Origin: Myxococcota bacterium
Lineage (GTDB): Bacteria; Myxococcota; XYA12-FULL-58-9; JALHOP01
NCBI GenBank assembly: GCA_022842935.1
Contig: JALHOP010000007.1
Location: forward strand, 77,592-141,591
Reading direction: 5' to 3'
Length of the DNA: 64,000 nt
Shown here piece after piece: positions 24,319-39,564 of the stretch; the stretch's first letter is position 1, and each line of letters starts with the position of its first letter. A program made the position numbers and the translations under genes. Under the pieces are notes generated by a model, which had not been told where the DNA came from, searched no databases, and was given only the letters and a program-made list of their open reading frames with translations.

Positions 24319-24352
24319 GGTTTTAACGCCAAAACTAAGCTAGGGTAACGCC

Positions 24353-24802
24353 ATGTCGAGCTCCACGGCCGCAGCGCGCAAGAAATTCCTGGTCCCGTTC
24401 AACTTCAGCCGCAAGTCCGAGATGGCGCTCGACTTCGCCCTCCGCTATGGCGCACACATCGAAGTCGATATTTACATGTTCCACGTCTTCGAGGGGAAGG
24501 CCGGCGACTTCCGCAAGCTCGACCGCCAAAACGAAGAGTACCTCGAGCGCATGAAGCTGACGGTGAACCAGTGGGTCGAGCGTGCCGCGCAGGAGGGCAT
24601 CAACGCCCAGGCGCACGACGTCCATCGCCGTGTCGCCAACGGAAAGCCCGGTCTCGAGATCTTGAAGATGGCCGGCGGCATCAACGCCGACATGATCATC
24701 ATGGGGGCCCCGACGTCGTTCGGGTTCAGGCGCCTGCTCTCCAAGACGCCTTGCACCACGGTGCTCGTGAAGGATAAGGACCCGGCGTTCGTCGTCGCGT
24801 AA
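24353..24802 (+). CDS. universal stress protein (UspA family)
   Basis: Usp fold with an ATP-binding-type C-terminal motif (IIMGAPTSFGFRRLLSKTPCTTVLV). Confidence 0.75.
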   Translation: MSSSTAAARKKFLVPFNFSRKSEMALDFALRYGAHIEVDIYMFHVFEGKAGDFRKLDRQNEEYLERMKLTVNQWVERAAQEGINAQAHDVHRRVANGKPGLEILKMAGGINADMIIMGAPTSFGFRRLLSKTPCTTVLVKDKDPAFVVA

Positions 24803-27236: not shown

Positions 27237-29423
27237 TCAGTGACCCTGTCCGCAACGGCTGCAGACGTGGGCGCGTCCTTCGAGACTCATGTCGCCGTCG
27301 CTCGCCGCGACCAGACGACCATTGCGGTCGAAGACCAGCGAGCCGGCGACAGCAGCCAAAATTTCGTTCGGCTTGCCAAAGCGGACGCGGGTGAAGCCAT
27401 AGCCGTCGGTGATGCGCTCGAGCTCGACCACGCCTTCGGCGCTCGTCCAGCCACCGACGCGCGCGGCAAGCGGGCCCTGACCACGCCGAGCAGAATCGAC
27501 GTCGCCGATGGTTGCGACGGGGAGGTCGCGGGTGATGCGCGGAGTGGTGTCAGCGGCGAGGAGGCCCCGTTCCCGCAGGATGCTCTCGAAGCGCGCAACG
27601 GACTCGGGCGACTCGGTTTCGCGCGCGCCGCGCAATAGAGCAGCACCGATATCGTGCAGGGAGCCGCCGTTCTCGGGCATGAACAGCATCGCGGCGTGTA
27701 ACGTGCTCGCGCTGACATCACGCACCCGTTGCACACTGGCGACCGGGTCGGTGGCGCCACGCGCCGCGTCGGACGCCTCGCGAGCGAAGTGCTCGTAGAG
27801 AGCACCCGAGATGATCCGTGAAACATAGTGGTGCTCACCGGCTCGGCTGCCGTCTGGCACTGGCGGGTTCCCGGATGCCGCCGGATCGAGCCCCGCGATG
27901 TCGCTGACGCGAAGCACGCTCGCGGCGTCACGCAGCGCTTGGTTGCCGTCGTCGGCTGGGTCGCGCGTGCTCGAAGCGATGGTGCGCGCGAGTTGTTCGG
28001 CGATACGAGAGACAGAGTTGCTACGGGTGAGATCGCCTTCCGTCTCGGCGAGGGCCGCACGAATCACCTCGGGAGAGTCGAACGCGGTGAGAAGCGCGAC
28101 CGAGTCGCCATAGGCCTCGTGCATGGCGCGCCCTGGCGCCGAGGAGAACATCGCTGGCATCAGCGTCGCGAGCGCCGCGTGACCCGCCTCATGGCTGCCT
28201 ACGAAGCGATCTTGAGCGAGTCGAACGAGCTGCCCGGTGAGTGGCCGGATGCGCGCGATCTCGAACCCCGCCCGCATGAGGTCGCCGCCATAGCGCGCGC
28301 GCGCGCTGAGGGTCAGAAATCTGTCGATGGGTAGAGGCTCTTCACCCGAGGGCGGCCTGGCAAAACCCCCAAAGAGCCTGCCCGCGAGGCCTCCGTTGGT
28401 TTGGCGCGGGTCAGTGATCGTCTCTCGCGCCCGCTCCGCGGTGAGGAGGCGCTCGACCTCGGCGACGTCGTCACGGCGGGCGGCGTCGACGATGGCGCGC
28501 AGCGCGGCAGCTTGCGCCCGCACTTCGCGCAAGCCGGCGGGATTGAGCTCGGGGCGACTTTCGGCGGAGAGGCGCGACTCTGTCTCGGAGACGGCACTCT
28601 CGCGCTCAGCGAGGGCGTGCTCGAGGAACGCGACGCTCGAGCCGTCGAGCGGCACCAGCCGCCCGTCCCGGACGTTACCCAGCGAGCCGAGTTGCACTTC
28701 ACGTGTGCCGCCAACGAAAAACGCGTTCAGCTCCACGCTGCTCGAGCCGACAAACGCGTTGGGGCGCACCGTGAGCTGACCGCCATCGCCCCAAGGGATG
28801 GGGCGCCGTGCCGCGCGCTCGGCCAAGGTGATGGTCTGGTTCGCGGCATAAAACGCGGTGGTCTGAGCCGTGTCCACCTCTGGGGCGTCGAAGTGGCCCT
28901 CGGCGTTGGCGGTCACGGGTGCGACCTGGCTCGGCTCGGTGATGACGTTGGTGGTGAGCAGGCCGATGAGCGGCAGCTGCGCAAGACCCGGGATGTTCGA
29001 CTCGGCCGTCTTGATGTCGCCATCGACGGCGATGCGCACACGCGGACCTTCGAGGAGCGAGGGCGCGTTACGCGTGCAATAAAAGGCGCTGCCGGGGAGG
29101 CTCGCAACCGTGGCTGGCCGACTTCCGTCGTCTTGGTGGACCCGGAGGTTTACCCCCGGGGTGGTGCAGATCGGCGGCCGCAAGGCGCCCGCTGAGCCTC
29201 GGGTGATTGGGGGAACACCGAACGGGAGCCCCGGTAGATTCACCTCGGGTCTCTGAACCTCGCGCTCGGGGTTGCGCACGTCGGTGGGGGCTGCGCCTTC
29301 GCCTGCACCTGCAAGGGCGGCACGGGAGGGGATACGGGTCGGCGCGATTGGAGTCACTTGCCTCGCATCCTCTCTGGTGCGCGATACACGCCACCTAGTT
29401 TCGTTCAGGATGTTTATCGGCAT
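27237..29423 (-). CDS. M4 (thermolysin-like) zinc metalloprotease homologue
   Basis: HEAGH (HExxH) motif followed about 20 residues later by HEAYGDS, which matches the thermolysin xEAxSD third zinc-ligand motif. No obvious N-terminal signal peptide. C-terminus ends CSRCGQGH. Start uncertain; the only Met is at 29423. Confidence 0.55.
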   Translation of the reverse strand: MPINILNETRWRVSRTREDARQVTPIAPTRIPSRAALAGAGEGAAPTDVRNPEREVQRPEVNLPGLPFGVPPITRGSAGALRPPICTTPGVNLRVHQDDGSRPATVASLPGSAFYCTRNAPSLLEGPRVRIAVDGDIKTAESNIPGLAQLPLIGLLTTNVITEPSQVAPVTANAEGHFDAPEVDTAQTTAFYAANQTITLAERAARRPIPWGDGGQLTVRPNAFVGSSSVELNAFFVGGTREVQLGSLGNVRDGRLVPLDGSSVAFLEHALAERESAVSETESRLSAESRPELNPAGLREVRAQAAALRAIVDAARRDDVAEVERLLTAERARETITDPRQTNGGLAGRLFGGFARPPSGEEPLPIDRFLTLSARARYGGDLMRAGFEIARIRPLTGQLVRLAQDRFVGSHEAGHAALATLMPAMFSSAPGRAMHEAYGDSVALLTAFDSPEVIRAALAETEGDLTRSNSVSRIAEQLARTIASSTRDPADDGNQALRDAASVLRVSDIAGLDPAASGNPPVPDGSRAGEHHYVSRIISGALYEHFAREASDAARGATDPVASVQRVRDVSASTLHAAMLFMPENGGSLHDIGAALLRGARETESPESVARFESILRERGLLAADTTPRITRDLPVATIGDVDSARRGQGPLAARVGGWTSAEGVVELERITDGYGFTRVRFGKPNEILAAVAGSLVFDRNGRLVAASDGDMSLEGRAHVCSRCGQGH

Positions 29424-29862
29424 GCTGACGCCGATGGTGCGTGAAAGTGCAAAGGGCTATAGTCGCCAGTCTGTGGCGTTCGTTCGCGTAGCATCACGTG
29501 GCAGCAGCATGTGGCCGACGCTCCGGCACGGCGACACCTTGCTCGTCGACAACATGGCGCCGCCCGCCGTTGGCGACATCGTCGTGCTGCGAGCGGGTGA
29601 GGGGAGCTTTATCGCCCACCGTCTGGTGGCCATGGCAAACGGCCTGGTGCGTTGCACGAATGCCCGCGGCGAGCCCGACCCCTGGGTCAGTCGAGACCAT
29701 GTGTTCGGGCGGGTCGCCTGTGTCGAGCGCGATGGGCGCTTGCTCGCGGTTGGGCGCGAACCGCCAAATGTGCGTATCCTTTGGGCGTTGCGTTCGAGCT
29801 ATGGTCTAGCGCGACGCATCGCGCATCGCGTGCGCAGGAGCCTTCGTGATCGCCAAGCGTAA
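29410..29862 (+). CDS. S26-family signal peptidase of the ER/archaeal (SipW-like, Ser/His) type
   Basis: Catalytic Ser box GSSMWPTLRHGDTLLVD, then GDIVVLR. A His (IAHRL) sits where bacterial type-I SPases carry the general-base Lys, as in Sec11/SipW-type enzymes. Start approximate; Mets are available at 29410, 29422 and 29434. Confidence 0.6.
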   Translation: MFIGMLTPMVRESAKGYSRQSVAFVRVASRGSSMWPTLRHGDTLLVDNMAPPAVGDIVVLRAGEGSFIAHRLVAMANGLVRCTNARGEPDPWVSRDHVFGRVACVERDGRLLAVGREPPNVRILWALRSSYGLARRIAHRVRRSLRDRQA

Positions 29863-30121
29863 GTCACATGTCGTCGCGCGCCAGGTCGACGACGAAGCCG
29901 TGCTCGTGCCCATCCGCAACGACGCGTCGACGCCGCTCGCCATTCACGCCTTGGGGCCGGTCGCCGCTTTCGTATGGGGATTGTTGGATGGGGCGCGGGC
30001 GAGCGATGTCATCGCGGACATGGTGAGCGACGAGTTCGAGGTCGACGCGGCCACGGCGCGCGTTGACGTCGCGACCTTCTTGACCGAGCTCGAGGCTGCG
30101 GGTCTCGTGGAGGTCACATGA
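29846..30121 (+). CDS. PqqD-family protein (RiPP recognition element / peptide chaperone)
   Basis: Canonical PqqD/RRE pattern (VVARQVDDEAVLV...AAFVWGLLDGARASDVIADMVSDEFEVDAATARVDVATFLTELEAAGLVEV). Its stop overlaps the radical-SAM start (ATGA). Confidence 0.7.
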   Translation: MIAKRKSHVVARQVDDEAVLVPIRNDASTPLAIHALGPVAAFVWGLLDGARASDVIADMVSDEFEVDAATARVDVATFLTELEAAGLVEVT

Positions 30122-31230
30122 CCGACGTTGCCGCAAGCAAAGGTGACAATGGCGCTGTTCGTGACCTGTACCAGCGCGCGCTGCGGAAGCGGCGCATCCC
30201 CATGCAAGCGATCTTCGAGCTCACGTTGCGTTGCAACTTGCGGTGCGATCACTGCTACCTGGGAAGTGATCGCAAGCGTGACGAGCTGTCGACTGCCGAG
30301 GTCACGCGCATCCTCGATGAGCTCGCGGGTGCGGGGACGCTCATTCTCACGTTGACCGGCGGCGAGGTCATGCTGCGGCCGGACTTCGAAGACATTTATC
30401 GGCACGCCATCGCGCGCGGATTTTTGGTCAGCGTGTTCACCAACGCGACGCTCATCAAGCCTCGCCACGTCCAGCTGTTCAAGGAGCTGCCGCCACGCGT
30501 CGTCGAGGTCTCGCTGTACGGCTTGAGTGACGACGACTACGTCGACTTCACGCATGCGACGATCCCTTTTGCCGACGTCGACGCCAACCTGCGCGCGCTC
30601 AAGAGCGCGGGCGTCCATTTCGTCTTGAAGAGCGTCGCGACGGTCACGCTGGGTCCCAAGATCCGAGCCATGCGCGCCTACGCCGAAGCGCTCGGTGTGC
30701 ACTTCCGATTCTCGACGACAGTCTACGGCGCCAATGACGAGACGGCGCTTGCCGACCACGAGCGACCCTCGGCCGAGACAGTCTGCGACAACGAGCGCGG
30801 CATCGTGCCAGTCGAGAGCCCGAACCGCGTGCCGCTCCCAACTCTTCCGAATCGTGTCTTCAACTGCGGAGCGGGTCGCGTCGCCATGCACGTCGACCCC
30901 GAAGGCATCGCTTCGCGTTGTGGCATCGTTACGAGCGCGCTTGGCGCACACACCGACTTGCGCAAGGTTTCGGTGCGCGAAGCCTGGGAGCGATTGGGCG
31001 TTGGCCTCGACGACGAGCTGGCCGAGGGGCATCCGTGCCGCGACTGTGAGATTAGGGCGCTATGCCACCGGTGCCCTGCGACCTCGACGCCCGAGCAAGA
31101 GATCGCCATGTGCGAGACTGCGCATGCCCGGGCGCGCGAGCTCGACCTTCAGGTGGCGGCGGTAGCGCCGATGCGCCAATTCTGGCAACCTCGGGAAGAG
31201 TCGATCTTGAAGCGGAGATTTCGTGGCTGA
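30118..31230 (+). CDS. radical SAM / SPASM-domain peptide-modifying enzyme
   Basis: CNLRCDHC (CxxxCxxC) radical-SAM cluster motif. C-terminal SPASM Cys cluster (FNCGAGR...CRDCEIRALCHRCP). Confidence 0.85.
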   Translation: MTDVAASKGDNGAVRDLYQRALRKRRIPMQAIFELTLRCNLRCDHCYLGSDRKRDELSTAEVTRILDELAGAGTLILTLTGGEVMLRPDFEDIYRHAIARGFLVSVFTNATLIKPRHVQLFKELPPRVVEVSLYGLSDDDYVDFTHATIPFADVDANLRALKSAGVHFVLKSVATVTLGPKIRAMRAYAEALGVHFRFSTTVYGANDETALADHERPSAETVCDNERGIVPVESPNRVPLPTLPNRVFNCGAGRVAMHVDPEGIASRCGIVTSALGAHTDLRKVSVREAWERLGVGLDDELAEGHPCRDCEIRALCHRCPATSTPEQEIAMCETAHARARELDLQVAAVAPMRQFWQPREESILKRRFRG

Positions 31231-31390
31231 CAGCAACCATCCGGCGCGCAAGCGCAAAGCCTATCAGCCACCGAAGCTCGAGACCGTCGAGGTCGTCGCC
31301 GAGGAAGCGCTGCTCGCTCTCTGCGCTTTCGGTGGTGGAACGCCCCAGACCGTCATGCAGGGCGCCCCCTGCGAGGTCTGCAAGAGTTGA
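31223..31390 (+). CDS. candidate RiPP precursor peptide (55 aa, not in the ORF track): VADSNHPARKRKAYQPPKLETVEVVAEEALLALCAFGGGTPQTVMQGAPCEVCKS
   Basis: GTG start overlaps the radical-SAM stop (GTGGCTGA) and is preceded by GCGGAG. It sits directly between the maturase and the kinase. Charged N-terminal leader-like half, a Gly-Gly-Gly junction, a core with three Cys and a C-terminal Ser. Confidence 0.5.
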   Translation: MADSNHPARKRKAYQPPKLETVEVVAEEALLALCAFGGGTPQTVMQGAPCEVCKS

Positions 31391-31421: not shown

Positions 31422-32255
31422 GTGCGTGACATTGCTTTTGGGCCCATCGCTCTGCGCATCGCCGGAGACCTCGCGGCTGTTCGCTGGCCGCTCGGGGCCG
31501 ACGACGTGCAGGTCGCTCCGCGGGTAGGCGCGAAAGTCGTGCACACCGAGCTCGTCGACGACCTACCGCCGCTCGCGAACCCGACCATCGACACGGGGGT
31601 GTGGCGCGCCGCTGCCTCGGGAGACGGCACGCGCTTCGCAATCACGGTTCCTCCTGACGCTCGCGTCGTCGCCGATTTTCACTGGGGTACATCGATGGTT
31701 TTGCGCGTTGTTCGCGATTTCATCGGCTTCGACCGCGCCCCCTGGTTCGACATCCTCGTACAGCTTGCGGTGGCCGAGATGGCGCCTTCCTGCGCAGGCT
31801 TGGCGCTCCATGCGGCCTGCCTCGAGATCGGGGGTCGCGCTGTACTCCTGTGTGGGCGTTCGGGGGCAGGCAAGACCACGCTCGCTGGCCGCCTAATCCG
31901 TGCGGGGGGGCATCTGATGAGTCATGATCGAACAATCCTGTTCGGAAGCGGCGCATGGCGTGCCGTTTCGACTCCCTGGGGACACGATGGAAGGTTGGCG
32001 AGCGCCGAGCGCGAACGGGATGTCGGCGCTGTCTTGTTTCTCGAGCAAGCCCCCGTCAACAGTAGTGAACGACTGACCGGCGTGCGTGGTATGGCGCGCG
32101 TTGGGTCGGTGGTGCTCGGAGCCCGGTCTGCCAAAGCGGTTATGAGCAAAGCAATGGAAGTGGCGGAGCACCTCGTGCGTGAGGTGCCCTGCCACGTCGT
32201 GCGTTTGACGAACGACGAGCGAGCGACGGAACACGTGCTGGAGTTGTTGCGATGA
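31422..32255 (+). CDS. HprK-like P-loop kinase (HPr kinase C-terminal domain homologue)
   Basis: LLCGRSGAGKTTLAGRLIRAGGHLMSHDRTILF matches the HprK C-domain pattern GxSGxGKS...GHxLxxDD. Start placed at the first in-frame GTG after the precursor stop. The ORF-track frame extends upstream over the precursor and radical-SAM gene and is unlikely to be real there. Confidence 0.6.
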   Translation: MRDIAFGPIALRIAGDLAAVRWPLGADDVQVAPRVGAKVVHTELVDDLPPLANPTIDTGVWRAAASGDGTRFAITVPPDARVVADFHWGTSMVLRVVRDFIGFDRAPWFDILVQLAVAEMAPSCAGLALHAACLEIGGRAVLLCGRSGAGKTTLAGRLIRAGGHLMSHDRTILFGSGAWRAVSTPWGHDGRLASAERERDVGAVLFLEQAPVNSSERLTGVRGMARVGSVVLGARSAKAVMSKAMEVAEHLVREVPCHVVRLTNDERATEHVLELLR

Positions 32256-35203
32256 GATTCGCAGTTTTGGTGATTGTGGGCTCGGCCCTCCTGGCGAGTA
32301 GCGCAAACGCCGCCTACATCGCCAACATCACCATCGACGGAAATGCCGCAGACTGGAGCGGCATGTATCAGTTTCGTGACCGCAACGAGACGACCCAGAC
32401 TGGTACCGACATCCCCGACCGCTACGATGTCGACACCGTCTACGTCGCGAATGACGGCACGTACCTGTACTGGGCGATCAACACGTACGGTGCGATCAGC
32501 GGTAACCTCTCATGGCGCATCTACGTCGACCCGAACAACGACACGGCTTCGGGTGGCGGCTACGGCCAAGACGACCGCTACGTCGAGTTCGATACCAACA
32601 ACGGCACCTGCCAGGCAGTGACCGTCCACGACGCCGACAACAATGCGGTGCGCAACCCTGCCATCGGGTGCGGGAACGGCGCCAACATCAACGTGGCTTT
32701 CAGCGGCACCTTCATCGAGGGGCGCATCTTGCTTTCGCGCCTTTTCACGACGGTCCCCACCGGCGGCAACCTCAACATCGGCGTCCTCGTGCAGGTCATT
32801 CCGAACACGGGCAACACGGCGACCGAGCTCGCGCCGGGGCAGCCGCTTCCGTCGTTCATCGACTACGACAATCGTGGCACTCTGGTCCCCACCTTTGTCC
32901 GCGTCCGCGGACTGACCGCCGAAGCAGCTGAAGGTGGCGTACTCGTGCGTTGGCGCACGAGCGCTGAGTACTTCAGCGCCGGTACCTGGGTGGTCCGGGC
33001 GAGCGGCGACGACTGGGTGCCCGTAAGTGGCGAACCTTCCGCGACACAGAACCAGGCGACCGGCGACAGTTACGCCGTGGTCGATGCCAATGGAGGGCCG
33101 GGGGACATCTACGCGCTCGTCGAAGTCGACAGCCGCACTATCGTGCGCGTCTTCGGGCCCGTGACGGCCGTGAAGAGCGCCGTGACCTTGCCCACGCGCT
33201 CACAGCGTCTCGCCAGCAACCTGACGAGCAACGCCCGTCGCATCGCGTCCCTCGATCAGCGCCTGCGCGTGCGCACCGCTGCCCTGGACAACATCCTGAG
33301 TGGCGGCCCGCTCCCCGGGCGCTTCCCGCAGCTCGACGTCGATGTAACCCGCGAAGGTCTATTCGTCGTCTGCGATAGCGATACGCTACGTTATGGTGGC
33401 GTGCCTGCGAAGATCACGCGCGGCGCCGAGGTCGTACGTGGCTTTGCGGTGAGTACGCCGTGCGCGGGCCTTGGCTTCTACGCGCCGGCTCCGAGCTCGC
33501 CCTACGCGCCGTTCGACGTCTACCGCGTGCAACTCGCGGCCGCGCGCAACCTCTCGCTCATCGACGCGCCCCTCGTGACGACGTACGACGGCCCCGTATC
33601 ATTGGCAACGCTGTCCACGCTCGTGACACCGCGCCGCTATCTCGACATGCGCGACGGGCAGCCCAACCGTTTCTTCTGGAGCTACGCCTCGACCTCGCCA
33701 AGCGCTCCCGTCGACCTTCCCGCGATTCCGGGTTACGCCGACATGACCGTCGACGTGCATCCGCTCTCTGGCGGCGCGACGCACACCCTCGTGGTTGCGA
33801 CCGATCGCGAGCTTGGTCGCTACACGGTCGGTGACGGTTGGAGCCGAATCGACTTCACCAACCTGGCGGTGAACGGCGCTCCGGCTCTCACCTTCGTGGT
33901 CGAAGCAGAACAAGGCGTCATCGAGACGGTCTTGCTCGCCGACGCTACCGTCCGCTATCGCGGCGAGCCTGCCCAGGCCGAAAACGGTGTGCATTTCGGC
34001 GCCGACGGTGACAGCTGGGTCGGTGTCCGAGGCGGCGAAGGTTTCGCCTTCGATGTCACGCAACCGCGCGACCCAAGCCTCCTCGTCGTCGCCCCATACG
34101 CGAACGGCACCGTCGTACACACGCAACCCGAGACCCGCGATGTCTTCATCGCCAAGACCTTCACGAAGCTCCAAGCCGTGCCCACCCTCGTCGATGCGTT
34201 CATTGACGAGCCGGGGAGCGGCGCCGAATACCTAGTTCTCACACCGGCCTCGCTCGTGGACACCGCGCGTGAGCTCGCACAGCTGCGGGCCGAAGAGGGG
34301 ATGAGCACAGCGGTGCTCTCCTACGAGGCTGTCTACGCGCGTTTCACTGGCTCGAACCCCGACCCGACGGCCGTCGCGAAGCTCCTCGATTGGGCCGCTG
34401 TCCGCTGGAGCGTCGCACCGCGCTACCTCGTGCTCGTAGGTAGCACGAGCTCGGACCCGTATGGCTATACTGGGTCGCAGCGGCTCGCCGACGCGCCCAT
34501 CGCCGAGAGCTTGGACCCCGACTTTACCTACCGGCGCTTCAGTGACCGCGACCTCACGGGCTCGCATCAGGTCGCCGTCGGGCGCATTCCTACCTCTGAC
34601 GCTTATGAGCTTGGCCGCTACGTCGAGAAACTCCGCGCCCACCGCGAGCGGAGCGCAACGGGCGTCTGGTCAGTACTCGCTGGGGCCTCGACCCCCGATG
34701 AGCCCTCGTATGCTGGCCTCGTCAACAACATCGCGGCGCAGGTCGCCGAGTCGGTGACCATCGATCGCTTGGACGACGCAACCACCGTTGACCTCGTGAA
34801 TGCATGGGGCGCGGCCGACGTCATTGCCTACGCTGGTCACGGCGATGCCGAGTCGTGGGCAGACGACGTGCTCTACACCGAGCTTGCGCCAAACCTCGTG
34901 ACGGAGCGGCCACCCGTGACCCTTTCTGCGGCTTGCATGGACGCAATGACCACCAGCGCCAACGGAGGCCTCGCCTGGTCCTTGGTGTCCGCTGAAGTGG
35001 GTCGCGGTAGCATCGCAGCCATTGCGCCAAGCAGCATCATCGAGCCTATCAGGGCCTCTGCGTTCCTCGGACGGGCGGCTGCAGCCATCGCGCACGGTGA
35101 GGCGGCGCGCTGGGGGGATGCCTGGTTGCTCGCGCAGATGAGTGATACGAGTGTCGCCGCGCGGTCGATGGTGCTCATCGGCGACCCAGCGCTCAGCCCA
35201 TGA
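32252..35203 (+). CDS. secreted C25 (gingipain-like) cysteine peptidase family protein, 983 aa
   Basis: Sec signal peptide (ALLASSANA-AY). C-terminal region carries VIAYAGHGD (His box) and TLSAACMD (Cys box) in the order and spacing seen in the C25 catalytic domain. Its ATG overlaps the kinase stop (ATGA). Confidence 0.55.
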   Translation: MRFAVLVIVGSALLASSANAAYIANITIDGNAADWSGMYQFRDRNETTQTGTDIPDRYDVDTVYVANDGTYLYWAINTYGAISGNLSWRIYVDPNNDTASGGGYGQDDRYVEFDTNNGTCQAVTVHDADNNAVRNPAIGCGNGANINVAFSGTFIEGRILLSRLFTTVPTGGNLNIGVLVQVIPNTGNTATELAPGQPLPSFIDYDNRGTLVPTFVRVRGLTAEAAEGGVLVRWRTSAEYFSAGTWVVRASGDDWVPVSGEPSATQNQATGDSYAVVDANGGPGDIYALVEVDSRTIVRVFGPVTAVKSAVTLPTRSQRLASNLTSNARRIASLDQRLRVRTAALDNILSGGPLPGRFPQLDVDVTREGLFVVCDSDTLRYGGVPAKITRGAEVVRGFAVSTPCAGLGFYAPAPSSPYAPFDVYRVQLAAARNLSLIDAPLVTTYDGPVSLATLSTLVTPRRYLDMRDGQPNRFFWSYASTSPSAPVDLPAIPGYADMTVDVHPLSGGATHTLVVATDRELGRYTVGDGWSRIDFTNLAVNGAPALTFVVEAEQGVIETVLLADATVRYRGEPAQAENGVHFGADGDSWVGVRGGEGFAFDVTQPRDPSLLVVAPYANGTVVHTQPETRDVFIAKTFTKLQAVPTLVDAFIDEPGSGAEYLVLTPASLVDTARELAQLRAEEGMSTAVLSYEAVYARFTGSNPDPTAVAKLLDWAAVRWSVAPRYLVLVGSTSSDPYGYTGSQRLADAPIAESLDPDFTYRRFSDRDLTGSHQVAVGRIPTSDAYELGRYVEKLRAHRERSATGVWSVLAGASTPDEPSYAGLVNNIAAQVAESVTIDRLDDATTVDLVNAWGAADVIAYAGHGDAESWADDVLYTELAPNLVTERPPVTLSAACMDAMTTSANGGLAWSLVSAEVGRGSIAAIAPSSIIEPIRASAFLGRAAAAIAHGEAARWGDAWLLAQMSDTSVAARSMVLIGDPALSP

Positions 35204-37107
35204 AACAGGTCCTCCCTGTTGTACTTCTAGTTTGCGTGTTCGCGGCGTGCTCCGGTGACGGGAGCGAGGCGCTACTGCGGGTCGACGCGCGCGGTGTCCA
35301 AGCGCTGCGCTCCGCGCTCGACCTCGCCACTGGTCGTCTCACCATCAACTGCACCGACGGGCGTCGGTTCGACGTACCGGTCGCGCTCGATGCAATCGAG
35401 CCGCCGGGGCAAGAGCTGACCGTGGCGGTCCCTGCGTGCGGCGATGCGCGCATCGAGTTCCAAATCCTTTCGGGCGTCGGCGTCCCCGAGCTACGGGGCG
35501 CGAACGACGCCGTCCTCGTGCCGGGCTTCGTGGATGTGGAGATCCCGCTCGGCTATGTTGGCCAGCTCTCACTAAGTCTTGCCACTGACTCGCTCGTCGA
35601 GAGCTGCGTCGCCGTGGTCGAGCGCACCTCACCCGATCGCGTCCTCGTCGAAAGCGCGCTCACGCTGACCCGCACCGAAGTGACGTCGCTCATCGTCCCC
35701 ATCGGTAGCTACGACGTCACGTGCGACGGCCGCATCGCCCAGACTCTCGTGAGCCCGGGCCTCAACGTCGACGTCGCCCTCATTGACCCGGTGCCCGGTC
35801 CGCGGCTCATCAGCACCACCCTGCAGCCGAGCTATCCGCCGACCACCGCGCGCATCGACGTGACCTTCACATTTTCGGCGCCGGTGACTGGTGTCGACGC
35901 GAGTAGCGTGAGCCTCGACAACGACGGCACCATCCAGGCCGTGAGCGGGAGCGGTTCGAGCTACACCGTGACCTTCAATGGCCTCAACATTGGCACTGAC
36001 TACATCGTCACCCTGTCAGCCAGCATCGTCGACAGCGAAGGTCTTCCCCTGGTCGGCGCTCCGCTCCGCCTGCCCTTCCGCATCCGCGCCAACGAATACT
36101 TCGTGTCGACAGCTGGCGACGACAGCGTCAACAGCGGCACCGACCCGACGAGCCCTTGGCGCAATATCGCGTTTGCGGTGGCCAGTGCCTCGACGCCCGC
36201 GCGCATCTACGTCGCCGCTGGTACGTATGACGAGCAGGTGTTTCTCGCCAGCGATGTCACCATCGAAGGCGGCTGGTCAGCGGACTTCGTGACACGCGAC
36301 CTTGCCACTAACGAGAGCCGTGTCCGCGCGAGCAATCAGACGGTCTTTTTCGGCAGTGTCGGCAACGCCGTTGTCGATGGGCTGACCATCGAAGCGACGC
36401 AGCCGCAGCAAGTCGTGGTGATGCAGAACGCCGATGCCACCTTGCGTAACTGCATCGTCACCGGAGCGGGAGGAACCTTTCCGACTGGCTATGGCGTGTT
36501 CATCGAAGGCCTGGGTCTACCGAGTCTCGTCAACAACGTCATCGCGGTGTCGGCGGGCTCTTCGAGCACCTACGCGGTCTTCGTTCAGAACGGCGGTAGC
36601 GCCCGCGTCATCCACAACACCATCGACGCGGGTGATCGTGGCATCGTCTCCGGTGTCTACCTCGACAGCGCCGCGGGCGACGTCAGCATCGTGAACAACC
36701 TCTTTGTTGGTGGCACCACCGTCAACACCCGCGTCGGCATCACCGGGGAAGCGCCTCCTACCGCCCTTGTGAACAACGCGTTCTCGGCCGAACACGATGA
36801 TGCGTATCGCAACGCCGCTGGCACCGGGCTTCCCATCGGCGCGGCCGGTGACTTCGGCTTTACCGCGCCGCACCGCTTTAGCGGCAACGTGCTCGTGGCA
36901 GCTACCGCAGCCTTGGTTAGCGGTGGCGACTACCGCAGCACACCCGACAGCTCACTCCAGATCGGCATTGACTCGGCGCCCGCGGATTGCGGATTCACAG
37001 ACACCTCCGCCTACCCGTGTTTCGGTCCGACGACGGACCGCTTGGGACAGGCGCGCGCGGTCCCGACGACGGTTGGTGCCTACGCGTCCGGTGCCGGAGC
37101 GCTTTGA
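35200..37107 (+). CDS. lipoprotein with right-handed parallel beta-helix (pectate-lyase-like) repeats
   Basis: Lipobox LLVCVFAAC. Repeated beta-helix rungs (NAVVDGLTIEA, LRNCIVTGAGG, LVNNVIAVSAG, VIHNTIDAGD, SIVNNLFVGG). Its start overlaps the preceding stop (ATGA). Confidence 0.6.
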   Translation: MKQVLPVVLLVCVFAACSGDGSEALLRVDARGVQALRSALDLATGRLTINCTDGRRFDVPVALDAIEPPGQELTVAVPACGDARIEFQILSGVGVPELRGANDAVLVPGFVDVEIPLGYVGQLSLSLATDSLVESCVAVVERTSPDRVLVESALTLTRTEVTSLIVPIGSYDVTCDGRIAQTLVSPGLNVDVALIDPVPGPRLISTTLQPSYPPTTARIDVTFTFSAPVTGVDASSVSLDNDGTIQAVSGSGSSYTVTFNGLNIGTDYIVTLSASIVDSEGLPLVGAPLRLPFRIRANEYFVSTAGDDSVNSGTDPTSPWRNIAFAVASASTPARIYVAAGTYDEQVFLASDVTIEGGWSADFVTRDLATNESRVRASNQTVFFGSVGNAVVDGLTIEATQPQQVVVMQNADATLRNCIVTGAGGTFPTGYGVFIEGLGLPSLVNNVIAVSAGSSSTYAVFVQNGGSARVIHNTIDAGDRGIVSGVYLDSAAGDVSIVNNLFVGGTTVNTRVGITGEAPPTALVNNAFSAEHDDAYRNAAGTGLPIGAAGDFGFTAPHRFSGNVLVAATAALVSGGDYRSTPDSSLQIGIDSAPADCGFTDTSAYPCFGPTTDRLGQARAVPTTVGAYASGAGAL

Positions 37108-37134: not shown

Positions 37135-39564
37135 GTGCGAGCGCGTCGAACCTGTGCGACACTGCTATCGATGAGGCGAAGGCTCACACTGTTCGCGCTG
37201 CTGTCTAGTTGCTCGGTCGATCTCCAGATCCCGGATGCTGCGGACATCGCCTGCGAGAGCGACGATGACTGCCCATCGGGCTTCATCTGCGATGTGCGCA
37301 GTCAGTGCCGCAGCCCGGAGGTCGCGGCGCGCGGTGTCCCCGGGTTCGACATTACTCCGACGACCGTCACCGTCGGGGAGTCCGGCACGCCGACGGTCGT
37401 TAACGTGCGCCTCACCGCGCAGCCGACCGCGGCGGTCACTCTCGTGCTCGCGCCCGATGACGGCAGCGAAGCGTTCATCTCCAAGAATGTGCTGACGTTT
37501 ACACCGGAAAACTACAACATCGCTCAAGCAGTCACGGTCGTCGGCGAGCGCGACTGCCTCGCGGACGGGCCCATCGTCTCGCACATCCTGATTTCTCCGG
37601 CCCAGAGTCTGGACCCCGACTACAACGGCCTCGACGCGCCAGATCTGGAAGTCACCACCAACGACGACGTGCCTTCCGCGGGGATCGTGGTTACGCCTCC
37701 CAGCGGCCTCGAGACCAACGAGAGCGGCAACGTGACCCAGTTCACCGTCGTCGTCGCTTGTAAGCCCACGGCGGACGTTCATTTTACCCTGGCGTCGACG
37801 GACGAAACCGAAGGCACCATCACCACGACTGAGCTCACTTTCACGCCTGACAACTGGGCGGTCCCGCGCGTCATCAACGTAGCGGGCAAGGGTGACTGCG
37901 AAACCGACGGTGACGTCACCTATGCCGTCGATCTCGGTAGGGTCGCGAGCGACGACCCGCTCTACGCGGGCATCGATGCGCCGAACGTCGAGCTCGTCAA
38001 TCGTGACGTTGTTTTCGGGCGGGTCAACGTCTCGCCCAACAACGGCCTGCGGACCACCGAAGGCGGCGGGCAAGCGACGTTCTCGGTGACGCTCACTTGC
38101 GCGCCGAGCGCCAATGTCATCGTGCCGATTGGCACAGGTGACGGAAGCGAAGGCACTCCGGGCGCGACGACGAGCCTCACGTTTACTCCGGCCAACTGGG
38201 GCGAGCCGCAAGCGGTCATCATCACCGGCGTAAATGACTTCTACGACGACGGTAACATTGCGTACGCCATCACCACCGGCACGCTCAATAGCACCGACCT
38301 TGGCTTCAATGGGCTCGATCCTGTCGATGTCAGCGTTACCAACGAAGACGACGACACAGCGAGCGTCACCGTGACCCCGACCACCGGTCTGCACACGACC
38401 GAAGCCGCGGGCACGGCGCAGTTCAGCATTCAGCTCGGGGCCGAGCCCCTATCACCCGTGCAGATCGCCATCGCCAGCACCGACACAGCCGAAGGGACCG
38501 TCGTCGGCACCACGGTGACGATCGCCGACCGCAATCCACGTTTCATCACCATCACCGGCGTGAACGACCCGGTCGACGACGACAACAAGAGTTACACCAT
38601 CACGCTGGGCGACATCGTCAGCAGCGACCCCGCCTTTAGCGGCATGGCGGTGCCCGACGTCGCAGTCATCAACGACGACGACGACACCGCGGGATTCACG
38701 CGCTGGGAGAACGCTGTATACGTCACCGAGGCGGGCAGCACCGCGGACGTGCGGCTCAGTCTCGCCTCGAGGCCGAGCGCCGACGTCAATTGCGTGGTCG
38801 ACGACACGTTCAACGACAACGAGATCCGTGTGGGCACTACCGGTTCGGTGAACGTGACGTTTACGCCGGTGACCTACGGCCTGTTGCAGTCGGTGACCGT
38901 GACGGGGGTGAACGACGGCGTCGCTGATGGCCTCTCGAATCCGTTGCCTTCGGTCCGTACCCAGTGCACGTCCGCGGACCCAAAGTACAACGGCATGCAA
39001 TACTACGTGACAGCCTACACCATCGAGCCGGCCAGCTCGCGGCGCGTCTACCAGACCGCAACAGCGGGCTACACCGGCAATCAGATCGCGATCACCACGG
39101 CTGACACCATTTGTCAGAACAACAACCCCATCGGCAGCGGCACCTGGAAGGCGATGCTCACCTCGTCGGATCCTACGGCGCCATCGGCGTTGCGGCGCGC
39201 CTGCACGACGCCCAACTGTGTCAGCAGTAGTGAGAATCAAAACTGGGTCTTCAGGCCGGCCTTCACGTATTACTGGTCCGGTGTGAACGGCATCGTCGGC
39301 ACGACGAACGCCGCTGGCATCTTCACCGGCATGATCGATGGCACACCGCCTAGCTCGGGCACCGCAGGTTTCGCTGGCTACTGGACCGGCATGAGCGCCG
39401 ATTTCACGAACAACGCCAATTGCAACAATTGGTCGACCACCAGCGGCACGGGGTCGGTTGGTCTCGACCGCCAGTCCACTGTCGGCAACACATTCGGCTG
39501 GAATCCGGGCATCGCCACCTTCGACTGCACCCAGACCCATCAGCTGCTGTGCATCGAGCAGTGA
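37135..39564 (+). CDS. lipoprotein with roughly six tandem 95-aa Ig-like repeats and a C-terminal C-type-lectin-like domain
   Basis: Lipobox LFALLSSC. Repeating unit VTPxxGLxTxExGxxAxFxVxL...LTFTPxNWxxPQxVxVxGxxD. The C-terminus ...WNPGIATFDCTQTHQLLCIEQ resembles the end of C-type lectin folds. Confidence 0.6.
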   Translation: MRARRTCATLLSMRRRLTLFALLSSCSVDLQIPDAADIACESDDDCPSGFICDVRSQCRSPEVAARGVPGFDITPTTVTVGESGTPTVVNVRLTAQPTAAVTLVLAPDDGSEAFISKNVLTFTPENYNIAQAVTVVGERDCLADGPIVSHILISPAQSLDPDYNGLDAPDLEVTTNDDVPSAGIVVTPPSGLETNESGNVTQFTVVVACKPTADVHFTLASTDETEGTITTTELTFTPDNWAVPRVINVAGKGDCETDGDVTYAVDLGRVASDDPLYAGIDAPNVELVNRDVVFGRVNVSPNNGLRTTEGGGQATFSVTLTCAPSANVIVPIGTGDGSEGTPGATTSLTFTPANWGEPQAVIITGVNDFYDDGNIAYAITTGTLNSTDLGFNGLDPVDVSVTNEDDDTASVTVTPTTGLHTTEAAGTAQFSIQLGAEPLSPVQIAIASTDTAEGTVVGTTVTIADRNPRFITITGVNDPVDDDNKSYTITLGDIVSSDPAFSGMAVPDVAVINDDDDTAGFTRWENAVYVTEAGSTADVRLSLASRPSADVNCVVDDTFNDNEIRVGTTGSVNVTFTPVTYGLLQSVTVTGVNDGVADGLSNPLPSVRTQCTSADPKYNGMQYYVTAYTIEPASSRRVYQTATAGYTGNQIAITTADTICQNNNPIGSGTWKAMLTSSDPTAPSALRRACTTPNCVSSSENQNWVFRPAFTYYWSGVNGIVGTTNAAGIFTGMIDGTPPSSGTAGFAGYWTGMSADFTNNANCNNWSTTSGTGSVGLDRQSTVGNTFGWNPGIATFDCTQTHQLLCIEQ

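What the first reader, a model, noticed from the sequence alone, without database searches (positions are those of the whole stretch)
31422..32255. HprK-like kinase next to a peptide ending in Ser: possible C-terminal phosphorylation of the peptide
The protein carries the HprK C-terminal-domain P-loop (GRSGAGKTT...GHLMSHDR), but it is not in a PTS/HPr context. In paeninodin-type lasso-peptide clusters, an HPr-kinase homologue is known to phosphorylate the C-terminal Ser of the precursor peptide. Here the candidate peptide also ends in Ser (…CKS). By analogy, the kinase may O-phosphorylate the peptide. The surrounding enzymes (rSAM/SPASM rather than lasso B2/C proteins) are different from the lasso case, which would make this a distinct use of the same tailoring logic.
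Basis: inference. Interest (0 to 1): 0.7.

Follow-up and report, generated by a model that had tools for sequence, protein, structure and literature searches.

The report
Peptide-modifying kinase beside Ser-ended peptide
A small kinase related to the sugar-regulation enzyme HprK sits in a peptide-modification gene cluster next to a 55-residue peptide whose relatives all end in serine, so it probably phosphorylates that last serine, a step so far shown only for lasso peptides.

Summary
Window 31422-32255 (+) encodes a 277-aa P-loop protein. The peptide gene 31223-31390 ends in ...CKS.

- **What the kinase is.** It is not HprK/P. It is a full-length member of the uncharacterised ScmC-like family (Pfam PF27840) and has a two-domain PEPCK/HprK fold. 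The HprK catalytic residues are kept: His130, Lys151, Thr152 and Asp169.
- **The cluster.** The gene lies in an operon-like RiPP cassette: a small signal-peptidase-like (S26-like) peptidase, a PqqD peptide-binding protein, a radical SAM/SPASM enzyme, the precursor peptide, the kinase and a secreted C25 peptidase. The same set recurs, with shuffled gene order, in loci from other lineages; some homologues are labelled Vicinamibacteria.
- **Evidence for the C-terminal Ser.** All 68 database homologues of the peptide end in Ser, on 50 different C-terminal tails. Across kinase-bearing cassettes found through the radical SAM gene, about 30 of 37 precursors end in Ser, against a 10.9% background.
- **Evidence against a simple rule.** A sister clade keeps the kinase but has no C-terminal Ser in 0 of 19 peptides. 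Its kinases also carry a changed active-site loop (LGEDQ instead of LSDDR).

C-terminal Ser O-phosphorylation is the best-supported model (confidence about 0.55) but is untested. I rate it a new variant of a known tailoring logic.

The parts
29410..29862 (+). Small soluble S24/S26-type peptidase of the Sec11/archaeal signal-peptidase kind; the candidate leader peptidase. The start is uncertain (ATG at 29410, 29422 or 29434).
   Evidence: Pfam Peptidase_S24 27.8 bits and NCBIfam sigpep_I_arch 24.6 bits. Alignment A4 shows the nucleophile motif GSSMWP, with Ser replaced by Cys in L005, L006 and L017, and invariant His70-Arg71 and Asp90. It is fused to the kinase in P0014 and P0015 and in 3 of 150 representatives.
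29846..30121 (+). PqqD-family peptide-binding protein (RiPP recognition element).
   Evidence: Pfam PqqD 55.2 bits, E = 8.8e-15. The best NCBIfam hits are lasso-type PqqD chaperones, below their cut-offs. It overlaps the neighbouring genes at both ends.
30118..31230 (+). Radical SAM/SPASM maturase.
   Evidence: Pfam Radical_SAM 83.3 bits. The best NCBIfam hit is the StsB sactipeptide maturase at 82.8 bits, far below its cut-off. It has the CNLRCDHC cluster and invariant C-terminal cysteines C250, C268, C307, C310, C316, C319 and C332.
31223..31390 (+). 55-aa precursor peptide: MADSNHPARKRKAYQPPKLETVEVVAEEALLALCAFGGGTPQTVMQGAPCEVCKS. It has a basic leader with a YxxP motif and a Cys-containing core, and ends in Ser55.
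   Evidence: The GTG start overlaps the radical SAM stop codon. There are 68 homologues, all ending in Ser. Invariant positions are Tyr, Pro, Glu and the first Cys, plus the terminal Ser, on 50 different tails after the last Cys.
31422..32255 (+). ScmC-like P-loop kinase with a PEPCK/HprK fold; the subject of the finding.
32252..35203 (+). Secreted Peptidase_C25 (gingipain/PorU-like), 983 aa. Its start overlaps the kinase stop codon (ATGA).
   Evidence: Pfam Peptidase_C25 114.8 bits; the PorU sortase model scores 57 bits, below its cut-off. It has a signal-peptide-like N-terminus and invariant His863 and Cys895. It co-occurs with the peptide, radical SAM and kinase genes in distant loci despite shuffled order.
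35200..37107 (+). Beta-helix (NosD/DUF1565-like) putative lipoprotein. It is co-directional and overlaps the end of the C25 gene. Whether it belongs to the cassette is uncertain.
   Evidence: Pfam NosD, Beta_helix and DUF1565 hits. It is conserved only in the close orthologous loci L001 and L004 and absent from distant cassettes.
37135..39564 (+). DUF1554 putative lipoprotein, co-directional with the cassette. Whether it belongs to the cassette is uncertain.
   Evidence: Pfam DUF1554 89.2 bits. It is conserved only in L001 and L004.

Best explanation
The gene encodes an ATP-dependent P-loop phosphotransferase of the ScmC-like branch of the PEPCK/HprK superfamily. It is a core enzyme of a ribosomal-peptide (RiPP) maturation cassette. 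It is not a PTS regulator.

Proposed sequence of events:
1. The 55-aa precursor is bound through its YxxP-containing leader by the PqqD protein.
2. The radical SAM/SPASM enzyme modifies the conserved cysteines of the core, most likely forming thioether cross-links.
3. The kinase transfers the gamma-phosphate of ATP to the side-chain hydroxyl of the invariant C-terminal Ser55. The P-loop (Gly145-Thr153), His130 and Asp169 (as proton acceptor) do the chemistry.
4. The S26-like peptidase in the cytoplasm, the secreted C25 peptidase, or both, remove the leader or trim the product.
5. In related loci that also carry an NTP_transf_5 enzyme, the phosphate is probably extended with a sugar or nucleotide. 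The window's clade lacks that gene.

What is shown: the gene content, the fold, the conserved catalytic residues, the conservation of the peptide and its terminal Ser, and the co-occurrence of the genes. What is inferred: every chemical step.
For: **Fold and active site**
- Alignment to L. casei HprK/P places His130, Lys151, Thr152 and Asp169-Arg170 on His140, Lys161, Ser162 and Asp179-Arg180. Those are the catalytic residues listed in PMC9399212.
- His130, Gly150, Lys151 and Thr153 are invariant, and position 169 is always Asp or Glu, in 150 representatives.

**Peptide**
- 68 of 68 homologues end in Ser. The tail after the last Cys varies from 2 to 14 residues, with 50 distinct tails.
- In an independent sample anchored on the radical SAM gene, leader-motif peptides in kinase-bearing loci end in Ser in 28 of 39 raw cases. 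After removing clearly spurious ORFs by eye and adding three precursors the automatic filter missed (window, L020, L029), the count is about 30 of 37.
- Ser is the last residue of 10.9% of the 1949 other small ORFs in the same loci. The binomial p-value is 6e-23, or about 2e-9 when counted by lineage.

**Linkage**
- The kinase is on 16 of 16 contigs of at least 6 kb with a strong radical SAM match.
- Gene fusions join the kinase to the S26-like peptidase.
- The genes in the window overlap one another.

**Precedent**
- HPr-kinase homologues in lasso clusters phosphorylate the C-terminal Ser of the linear precursor, and a nucleotidyltransferase then adds hexose (PMC8498205).
- The same enzyme set occurs in related loci: a kinase, a PqqD protein and an NTP_transf_5 that is 29% identical (E = 8e-12) to the one in a Paenibacillus lasso cluster.
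- That lasso cluster's precursor also ends in Ser.

**Covariation**
- The one clade whose peptides do not end in Ser (0 of 19) has kinases with LGEDQ in place of LSDDR at the catalytic loop.
Against: - There is no experimental evidence for any ScmC-like protein. The literature held has nothing on 'SynChlorMet' and nothing on such a kinase outside lasso clusters.
- The kinase shares only the P-loop core with a lasso-cluster kinase: 57 aligned columns.
- The sister clade keeps an apparently intact kinase without a C-terminal Ser. A few paralogues end in Thr, Ile or Arg. A Paenibacillus ScmC-like kinase sits next to a YxxP peptide ending in Lys.
- The window clade has His at position 168, where 147 of 150 relatives have Asp. 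This might alter or reduce catalysis.
- The kinase is obligatory rather than optional, which may point to a role other than decoration.
- The covariation rests on a single evolutionary event.
- No exporter is visible, although the C25 peptidase is secreted.
Confidence: 0.55

Rival explanations
1. The kinase phosphorylates the C-terminal Ser only transiently, to activate it. The phosphate then leaves by beta-elimination. That would give dehydroalanine, which could hydrolyse to a C-terminal amide or be attacked by a nearby Cys. Alternatively the phosphate serves as a handle for the next enzyme. On this reading the mature product carries no phosphate.
For: - The kinase is a core gene, present on 16 of 16 long contigs. 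In lasso clusters, by contrast, it occurs in only some clusters (PMC4289311, PMC8498205).
- A conserved Cys lies 2-14 residues before the terminal Ser.
- From established knowledge: class III/IV lanthipeptide synthetases use phosphorylation followed by elimination, and thiopeptide C-terminal amides arise from a terminal dehydroalanine.
- The best structural match is PEPCK, an enzyme that couples phosphoryl transfer to other chemistry.
Against: - No lyase or elimination domain was detected in the window cassette.
- Related loci carry an NTP_transf_5 enzyme. In lasso clusters this type of enzyme acts on a persistent phosphate (PMC8498205).
Confidence: 0.15
2. The ScmC-like protein does not act on the C-terminal Ser. 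It either phosphorylates another residue or a non-peptide substrate, or it serves as an ATP-dependent scaffold for the radical SAM enzyme or the peptidase. The terminal Ser is conserved because another enzyme needs it: the C25 peptidase, the S26-like peptidase or the radical SAM enzyme.
For: - The sister clade retains the kinase with the P-loop, His and Asp intact, but has no terminal Ser.
- A Paenibacillus ScmC-like kinase neighbours a peptide ending in Lys.
- The kinase is fused to the peptidase in some genomes.
- The family has no experimental record in the literature held.
Against: - Terminal Ser is also strongly enriched in cassettes in which no C25 gene was detected on the contig (L021, L026, L027, L032, L033, L053, L061). 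C25 therefore cannot be the only reason for it.
- Catalytic residues are conserved across 150 representatives, which argues for real phosphotransfer.
- The kinase catalytic loop changes in the very clade that lost the terminal Ser.
Confidence: 0.2
3. It is a genuine HPr kinase/phosphorylase that regulates carbon metabolism through HPr, and it lies next to the peptide genes by chance.
For: The P-loop, His and Asp motif is shared with HprK/P.
Against: - Scores are far below family cut-offs: 22.6 against 240, and 23.4 against 33.3.
- No HprK N-terminal domain is detected, and the N-terminal half aligns with PEPCK.
- There is no HPr gene in 64 kb.
- The gene shows conserved, overlapping linkage to RiPP genes in other lineages.
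Confidence: 0.01

Closest known systems
Lasso-peptide kinases (HPr-kinase homologues of the paeninodin and pseudomycoidin clusters) with their partner nucleotidyltransferase
   Same: - HprK-type P-loop catalytic core.
- Located in a RiPP cluster that has a PqqD-type recognition protein.
- The precursor has a YxxP-type leader motif and a C-terminal Ser.
- Related loci of the present family also carry an NTP_transf_5 enzyme homologous to the one in a lasso cluster (PMC8498205).
   Different: - There is no lasso cyclase or B2 protease. The main enzyme is a radical SAM/SPASM protein.
- The kinase belongs to another subfamily (ScmC-like). Only 57 columns align with a lasso-cluster kinase, against 163 with a ScmC-like one.
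- The kinase appears obligatory rather than optional.
- S26-like and C25 peptidases are part of the set.
SynChlorMet cassette (ScmC, the PqqD-like ScmD, and the radical SAM/SPASM proteins ScmE and ScmF; NCBIfam TIGR04248-TIGR04251; Pfam PF27840 'ScmC')
   Same: - A ScmC-like protein with a PqqD homologue and a radical SAM/SPASM enzyme.
- Homologues of the window protein carry PF27840.
- The function of that cassette is also unknown; the literature held has no paper on it.
   Different: - The window proteins score far below all four equivalog cut-offs: ScmC 24.7-25.7 against 125, ScmD 25.9 against 100, ScmE and ScmF about 47 against 400.
- There is one radical SAM gene, not two.
- The window cassette adds the S26-like and C25 peptidases.
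- A precursor with an invariant terminal Ser is identified here.
HPr kinase/phosphorylase (HprK/P)
   Different: - The N-terminal domain is different.
- No HPr or PTS genes are nearby.
- Scores are below the family cut-offs.
- The probable substrate is a peptide.
ATP-dependent PEP carboxykinase
   Different: - Sequence identity is 12-13%.
- The window protein is about half the size.
- No PEPCK family hit was found.
- The resemblance reflects the shared superfamily and does not indicate a shared function.
Gingipain/PorU-type C25 peptidases
   Same: The neighbouring gene has the C25 domain with an invariant His/Cys dyad and a signal peptide.
   Different: No C25 peptidase is described as part of a RiPP cluster in the literature held. 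The PorU model scores below its cut-off: 57 against 420.

Membership tests
HPr kinase/phosphorylase (TIGR00679; Pfam Hpr_kinase_C plus the N-terminal domain) | Score above the curated family cut-off | tested here: not met
   hpr-ser scores 22.6 bits against 240. Hpr_kinase_C scores 23.4 against 33.3. Only about 45 residues are matched.
HPr kinase/phosphorylase (TIGR00679; Pfam Hpr_kinase_C plus the N-terminal domain) | P-loop together with His140, Lys161, Ser162 and Asp179 | tested here: met
   His130, Lys151, Thr152 and Asp169 align to these residues.
HPr kinase/phosphorylase (TIGR00679; Pfam Hpr_kinase_C plus the N-terminal domain) | HprK-type N-terminal domain | tested here: not met
HPr kinase/phosphorylase (TIGR00679; Pfam Hpr_kinase_C plus the N-terminal domain) | Glu204 signature region and Arg245/K3 loop | tested here: inconclusive
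   The sequence alignment stops before these regions. A residue-level structural superposition could not be made with these tools.
HPr kinase/phosphorylase (TIGR00679; Pfam Hpr_kinase_C plus the N-terminal domain) | HPr substrate gene or PTS context | tested here: not met
The rest of the genome was not available.
Lasso-peptide kinases (paeninodin type) | Located in a cluster with a lasso cyclase (AsnB-like) and a B2 protease | tested here: not met
   Neither gene is in the window cassette or in related loci. Both are present in the Paenibacillus comparison locus L011.
Lasso-peptide kinases (paeninodin type) | Precursor ends in Ser | tested here: met
   The window peptide ends ...CKS, and 68 of 68 homologues end in Ser.
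Lasso-peptide kinases (paeninodin type) | Full-length homology to a lasso-cluster kinase | tested here: not met
   hhalign against the L011 lasso-cluster kinase aligns 57 columns, the P-loop region only.
Lasso-peptide kinases (paeninodin type) | ATP-dependent phosphorylation of the C-terminal Ser of the linear precursor | not testable with these tools
   This needs an in vitro assay or mass spectrometry.
ScmC family (Pfam PF27840; NCBIfam TIGR04249, SynChlorMet cassette) | Match to Pfam PF27840 | tested here: met
   A precomputed PF27840 hit is recorded for the identical protein P0001 and all its homologues, and is named 'ScmC'. The local Pfam copy returned no PF27840 match, so it apparently lacks the model and the hit could not be re-scored.
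ScmC family (Pfam PF27840; NCBIfam TIGR04249, SynChlorMet cassette) | TIGR04249 equivalog cut-off of 125 bits | tested here: not met
   The score is 24.7-25.7 bits. None of the 150 closest representatives comes near the cut-off; the best E-value is 8.8e-12.
ScmC family (Pfam PF27840; NCBIfam TIGR04249, SynChlorMet cassette) | Neighbouring PqqD homologue and radical SAM/SPASM enzyme | tested here: met
   PqqD at 29846-30121 and radical SAM/SPASM at 30118-31230.
ScmC family (Pfam PF27840; NCBIfam TIGR04249, SynChlorMet cassette) | Two radical SAM/SPASM genes (ScmE and ScmF) | tested here: not met
   The window cassette has a single radical SAM gene. More distant cassettes have two or three (L026, L027, L038).
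RRE-dependent radical SAM/SPASM RiPP cluster (sactipeptide/ranthipeptide-like) | CxxxCxxC radical SAM cluster and a SPASM cysteine cluster | tested here: met
   The CNLRCDHC motif and seven invariant C-terminal cysteines, including C307-x2-C310-x5-C316-x2-C319. Pfam SPASM itself was not hit in the window protein, but it is hit in relatives.
RRE-dependent radical SAM/SPASM RiPP cluster (sactipeptide/ranthipeptide-like) | Short adjacent precursor with a leader and a Cys-containing core, plus a PqqD-type RRE | tested here: met
RRE-dependent radical SAM/SPASM RiPP cluster (sactipeptide/ranthipeptide-like) | Thioether (or other) cross-link made by the radical SAM enzyme | not testable with these tools
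   The chemistry is unknown. The best family hit (StsB, 82.8 bits against a cut-off of 625) gives only a hint.

The most novel reading that the evidence does not exclude
The window holds a member of an uncharacterised RiPP class found in several bacterial lineages. In this class a ScmC-type kinase is an obligatory core enzyme. The phosphate it places on the invariant C-terminal Ser would then be a functional handle, not a decoration. The handle could be extended by the NTP_transf_5 enzyme. It could also be used by the dedicated secreted C25 (PorU-like) peptidase to process the radical-SAM-cross-linked peptide or to anchor it to the cell envelope.
Probability: 0.2. Interest if true: 0.85.

Novelty: new variant of a known kind. 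Interest (0 to 1): 0.62.

Why it matters
Phosphorylation of a C-terminal Ser by an HprK-like kinase has been demonstrated only for lasso peptides.

- **A function for an unstudied family.** This locus and its relatives suggest that a much larger kinase family applies the same logic in radical SAM/SPASM peptide pathways. That family has 1063 representative clusters at E <= 1e-30. It is catalogued as 'ScmC' and has no experimental record in the literature held.
- **A direct test.** The prediction is a +80 Da shift on the last residue.
- **A genome-mining signature.** A YxxP leader, a Cys-containing core and a terminal Ser next to a ScmC-like kinase together mark such precursors.
- **A new association.** A C25 peptidase and a Sec11-like peptidase are linked to RiPP maturation here, which the literature held does not describe.

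Tried and rejected
- **Bona fide HprK/P:** rejected on scores, domain architecture and context.
- **Curated NCBIfam families:** membership of HprK_rel_A, HprK_rel_B or ScmC was rejected. All scores are 20-45 bits against cut-offs of 125-200. The same holds for the lasso-cluster kinase of L011, so these models cannot classify the protein.
- **Kinase-anchored genome scan:** the only usable pattern was the generic P-loop.
- **Exact look-up of the window kinase** in the contig index found nothing, so the source organism stays unidentified. LNFM01 is the only accession seen.
- **AFDB fold search:** the library was unavailable.
- **Rfam scan of the window:** no matches.
- **Promoter and terminator scan:** counts were no higher than in shuffled sequence.
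- **Literature:** searches for SynChlorMet, for ScmC, for C25 with radical SAM and PqqD, and for radical SAM with HPr kinase found nothing relevant beyond lasso peptides. The primary paeninodin paper and the Haft radical SAM paper are not held.
- **Negative control:** no proper one was available. Contigs without a kinase that still carried family-type peptides were all shorter than about 4.7 kb, so the kinase may lie beyond the contig end.
- **Neighbour-joining tree of kinases:** it has no support values, and the window clade sits on a long branch with an unstable position. I used it only for the monophyly of the non-Ser clade and for the grouping of lasso kinases with HprK.
Full report
**1. 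What is at the coordinates**

Window 31422-32255 (+) is a 277-aa ORF that starts at GTG. Orthologues begin at the equivalent position (MRWIGFGP, MRIITFGP).

Thirty-one bases upstream, at 31223-31390, lies a 55-aa ORF whose GTG start overlaps the stop codon of the preceding gene: MADSNHPARKRKAYQPPKLETVEVVAEEALLALCAFGGGTPQTVMQGAPCEVCKS.

The neighbourhood is one co-directional block with overlapping or nearly abutting genes:

| Coordinates | Gene |
|---|---|
| about 29410-29862 | small S24/S26-like peptidase |
| 29846-30121 | PqqD |
| 30118-31230 | radical SAM/SPASM |
| 31223-31390 | precursor peptide |
| 31422-32255 | kinase |
| 32252-35203 | Peptidase_C25 (start overlaps the kinase stop) |
| 35200-37107 | beta-helix protein |
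| 37135-39564 | DUF1554 protein |

**2. What the kinase-like protein is**

Sequence similarity to HprK/P is confined to about 45-65 residues around the P-loop and falls below all curated thresholds:
- Pfam Hpr_kinase_C: 23.4 bits against 33.3.
- NCBIfam hpr-ser: 22.6 against 240.
- HprK_rel_A: 27.9 against 200.
- ScmC: 24.7 against 125.

The identical protein and its homologues carry the newer Pfam family PF27840, named 'ScmC'. The local Pfam copy returned no PF27840 match, so it apparently lacks that model.

Only six close homologues exist among 5.8 billion proteins. A profile of the family, however, finds 1063 representative clusters at E <= 1e-30, aligned over the full length. None of the best 150 comes near the cut-off of any curated NCBIfam kinase family.

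A profile-to-PDB sequence alignment lines the protein up with L. casei HprK/P as follows:

| Window residue | HprK/P residue |
|---|---|
| His130 | His140 |
| Lys151-Thr152 | Lys161-Ser162 |
| His168-Asp169-Arg170 | Asp178-Asp179-Arg180 |

PMC9399212 lists His140, Lys161, Ser162 and Asp179 (the proton acceptor) among the catalytic residues. In 150 representatives His130, Gly150, Lys151 and Thr153 are invariant, and position 169 is always Asp or Glu. Position 168 is Asp in 147 and His only in the window's clade.

I conclude that this is a probably active P-loop phosphotransferase of the PEPCK/HprK superfamily. It belongs to the ScmC-like family and is not HprK/P.

**3. The peptide is real and its last residue is special**

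Orthologous loci (L001, L004) and distant loci (L005, L006, L008, L013) all have a small gene of about 55 aa next to the radical SAM gene. These distant loci have kinases only 28-36% identical to the window's. Each peptide has a basic N-terminus, a Y-x-x-P motif and a Cys-containing core.

A profile of eight such peptides retrieved 68 database homologues. All 68 end in Ser. The tail after the last Cys varies from 2 to 14 residues, and 50 different tails occur (KS, FTNS, FSSS, FGGS...RGS...KGS...IGS...VTS...NAS). Apart from the terminal Ser, the only positions conserved in at least 95% of peptides are Tyr, Pro, one Glu and the first Cys. One residue adds only a few bits to a profile score, so search bias cannot explain 68 of 68.

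**4. An independent sample anchored on the radical SAM gene**

A metagenome scan with an alignment of the radical SAM proteins returned 80 loci. I annotated them with HMMs built here.

- Every contig of at least 6 kb with a strong radical SAM match (16 of 16) also carries the kinase. PqqD is usually present, and the S26-like peptidase and NTP_transf_5 often are. C25 is present in a subset.
- I then selected small ORFs only by position and by the leader motif [YFW]xxPx[LIVM], without looking at their ends. Of these, 28 of 39 end in Ser.
- After removing obviously spurious ORFs by eye and adding three precursors the automatic filter missed (window, L020, L029), about 30 of 37 end in Ser and 2 end in Thr. 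One locus (L033) has eight precursor paralogues, seven ending in Ser and one in Thr.
- Among the 1949 other small ORFs in the same loci, 10.9% end in Ser. The binomial p-value is 6e-23, or about 2e-9 when counted over roughly 11 lineages.

**5. The exception**

One clade has the same gene order as the window: PqqD, radical SAM, peptide, kinase, C25. It comprises L009, L023/24, L043 and L100/101, and includes an Anaerolineales MAG and a Brevefilum record. Its peptides end in variable residues, and none of 19 ends in Ser.

Its four kinases form one group in a rough tree. All four read L-G-E-D-Q where the others read L-S-D-D-R, that is, at the Asp179-Arg180 equivalents.

This cuts both ways. It shows that a ScmC-like kinase can persist without a terminal Ser. 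It also shows that the catalytic and substrate loop changed in the same lineage in which the terminal Ser was lost. It is one evolutionary event, so I treat it as suggestive only.

**6. Relation to the lasso precedent**

[quoted passage not shown] They show little regard for the rest of the sequence. A cluster nucleotidyltransferase then adds hexose to the phosphate (pseudomycoidin).

Locus L011 (Paenibacillus violae) contains such a cluster: cyclase, kinase, PqqD/B1, B2, NTP_transf_5 and an ABC transporter. Its precursor ends ...QLTWS.

- The NTP_transf_5 of the distant relatives of the window cassette is homologous to that enzyme (29% identity, E = 8e-12).
- The kinase subfamilies differ. 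hhalign of the window family against the lasso-cluster kinase covers 57 columns, the P-loop region only.
- Against a second, ScmC-like kinase in L011 it covers 163 columns. That kinase sits next to a PqqD gene, an S26-like peptidase and an ABC transporter.
- In the rough tree the lasso-cluster kinases group with the HprK/P fragments, apart from most ScmC-like kinases.

The logic is therefore shared, but the enzyme is a different branch of the superfamily and the scaffold-forming enzyme is different.

**7. Other members of the cassette**

*S26-like peptidase.* It has the nucleophile motif G-S-S-M-x-P, with Ser replaced by Cys in several loci. It has invariant His-Arg in place of the Lys of bacterial signal peptidase I, and an invariant Asp. 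This is the Sec11/archaeal type, and the best NCBIfam hit is sigpep_I_arch. It is fused to the kinase in P0014 and P0015 and in 3 of 150 representatives, so the two proteins are functionally tied. It is the natural candidate for an RRE-guided leader peptidase, analogous to lasso B1/B2.

*C25 peptidase.* It has a signal-peptide-like N-terminus and an invariant His863/Cys895 dyad. It accompanies the peptide, radical SAM and kinase genes in the window clade, the clade containing the Vicinamibacteria-labelled homologues, the Anaerolineae clade, L008 and L022. Its position differs between clades. That argues for function and against mere inherited synteny. I found no literature linking C25 peptidases to RiPP clusters.

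*Beta-helix and DUF1554 genes.* These are conserved only in close orthologues, so their membership is uncertain.

**8. Mechanism and confidence**

The best-supported model runs as follows:
1. PqqD binds the leader through its YxxP motif.
2. The radical SAM/SPASM enzyme modifies the conserved cysteines.
3. The kinase O-phosphorylates Ser55.
4. The two peptidases process the product.
5. In loci with NTP_transf_5, the phosphate is extended.

Shown: the anatomy, the fold, the catalytic-residue conservation, the peptide conservation, the terminal Ser statistics, the co-occurrence and the fusions. Inferred: all the chemistry. I put the model at about 0.55.

The rivals are:
- Transient phosphorylation that activates the Ser for elimination or further transfer (0.15).
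- A role unrelated to the terminal Ser (0.2).
- True HprK/P (about 0.01).

**9. Novelty**

The grouping of a ScmC-like protein, a PqqD homologue and radical SAM/SPASM enzymes is already catalogued as the 'SynChlorMet cassette', without a function. C-terminal Ser phosphorylation by HprK homologues is established for lasso peptides.

New here:
- The identification of the precursor family with an invariant terminal Ser.
- Strong enrichment of terminal Ser across ScmC-type cassettes.
- The obligatory presence of the kinase.
- The linked Sec11-like and C25 peptidases.
- The contrasting sister clade.

I rate this a new variant of a known kind, with moderately high interest because it gives a large unstudied family a directly testable function.

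Noticed in passing
window 32252-35203; also L005:8499-12296, L009:10498-14040, L016:5099-8938, L018:5095-8940, L100:9233-12823: A large secreted Peptidase_C25 with an invariant His863/Cys895 dyad travels with the peptide, radical SAM and kinase genes in distant lineages, although gene order is shuffled. No C25 peptidase is described in RiPP clusters in the literature held.
   Followed up: partly
P0014 and P0015 (469 and 461 aa); 3 of 150 kinase representatives: These are natural fusions of the ScmC-like kinase to the S26-like peptidase. The fusion ties the two enzymes to one pathway.
   Followed up: partly
window about 29410-29862; L005:5234-5680; L006:4605-5036; L017:4321-4752: The small S26-like peptidase has Ser as its nucleophile in some loci (GSSMWP) and Cys in others (GxCMxP). 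It has an invariant His-Arg instead of the Lys of bacterial signal peptidase I. Gene callers in L001 and L004 started the gene at the Met after the nucleophile, which is probably a mis-called start.
   Followed up: partly
window 31422-32255, residue 168: The window clade has His where 147 of 150 relatives have Asp. This is the position equivalent to HprK/P Asp178, next to the catalytic Asp. The consequence is unknown.
   Followed up: no
L009:9400-10453; L023:8040-9065; L043:8044-9212; L100:8001-9142: A sister clade (Anaerolineae) has the same gene order as the window. None of its 19 peptides ends in Ser, and its kinases read LGEDQ instead of LSDDR at the catalytic loop.
   Followed up: yes
L033:922-8557; L026:6233-10564: These cassettes have many precursor paralogues (eight in L033, four in L026) with the leader W-x-K-P-E-L-V-V-L-V-R...P-E-E and two or three radical SAM/SPASM genes. 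Nearly all the peptides end in Ser. No NCBIfam model matches these peptides.
   Followed up: partly
L011:2667-6252 and L011:7447-14347 (Paenibacillus violae): Two clusters lie side by side. One is a paeninodin-like lasso cluster whose precursor ends in Ser. The other is a set of ScmC-like kinase, PqqD, S26-like peptidase and ABC transporter, whose candidate YxxP peptide ends in Lys.
   Followed up: partly
L005:2747-4084 (-); L006:2123-3496 (-); L013:635-2023 (-); L018:2292-3656 (-): A conserved protein of 445-462 aa with no Pfam hit (L005 also has no NCBIfam hit) is divergently transcribed next to the NTP_transf_5 gene in the distant cassettes. It may belong to the system, and could be the missing exporter or another enzyme.
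   Followed up: no
window 22018-24802; L001:4155-6911: A PrkA serine kinase and a universal stress protein lie upstream. They are syntenic in the orthologous loci but absent from the distant cassettes, so this is probably only neighbourhood.
   Followed up: no
P0239: A 690-aa coiled-coil protein is listed as a member of the 90%-identity cluster of a 57-aa precursor peptide. This is a clustering artefact in the protein collection.
   Followed up: yes
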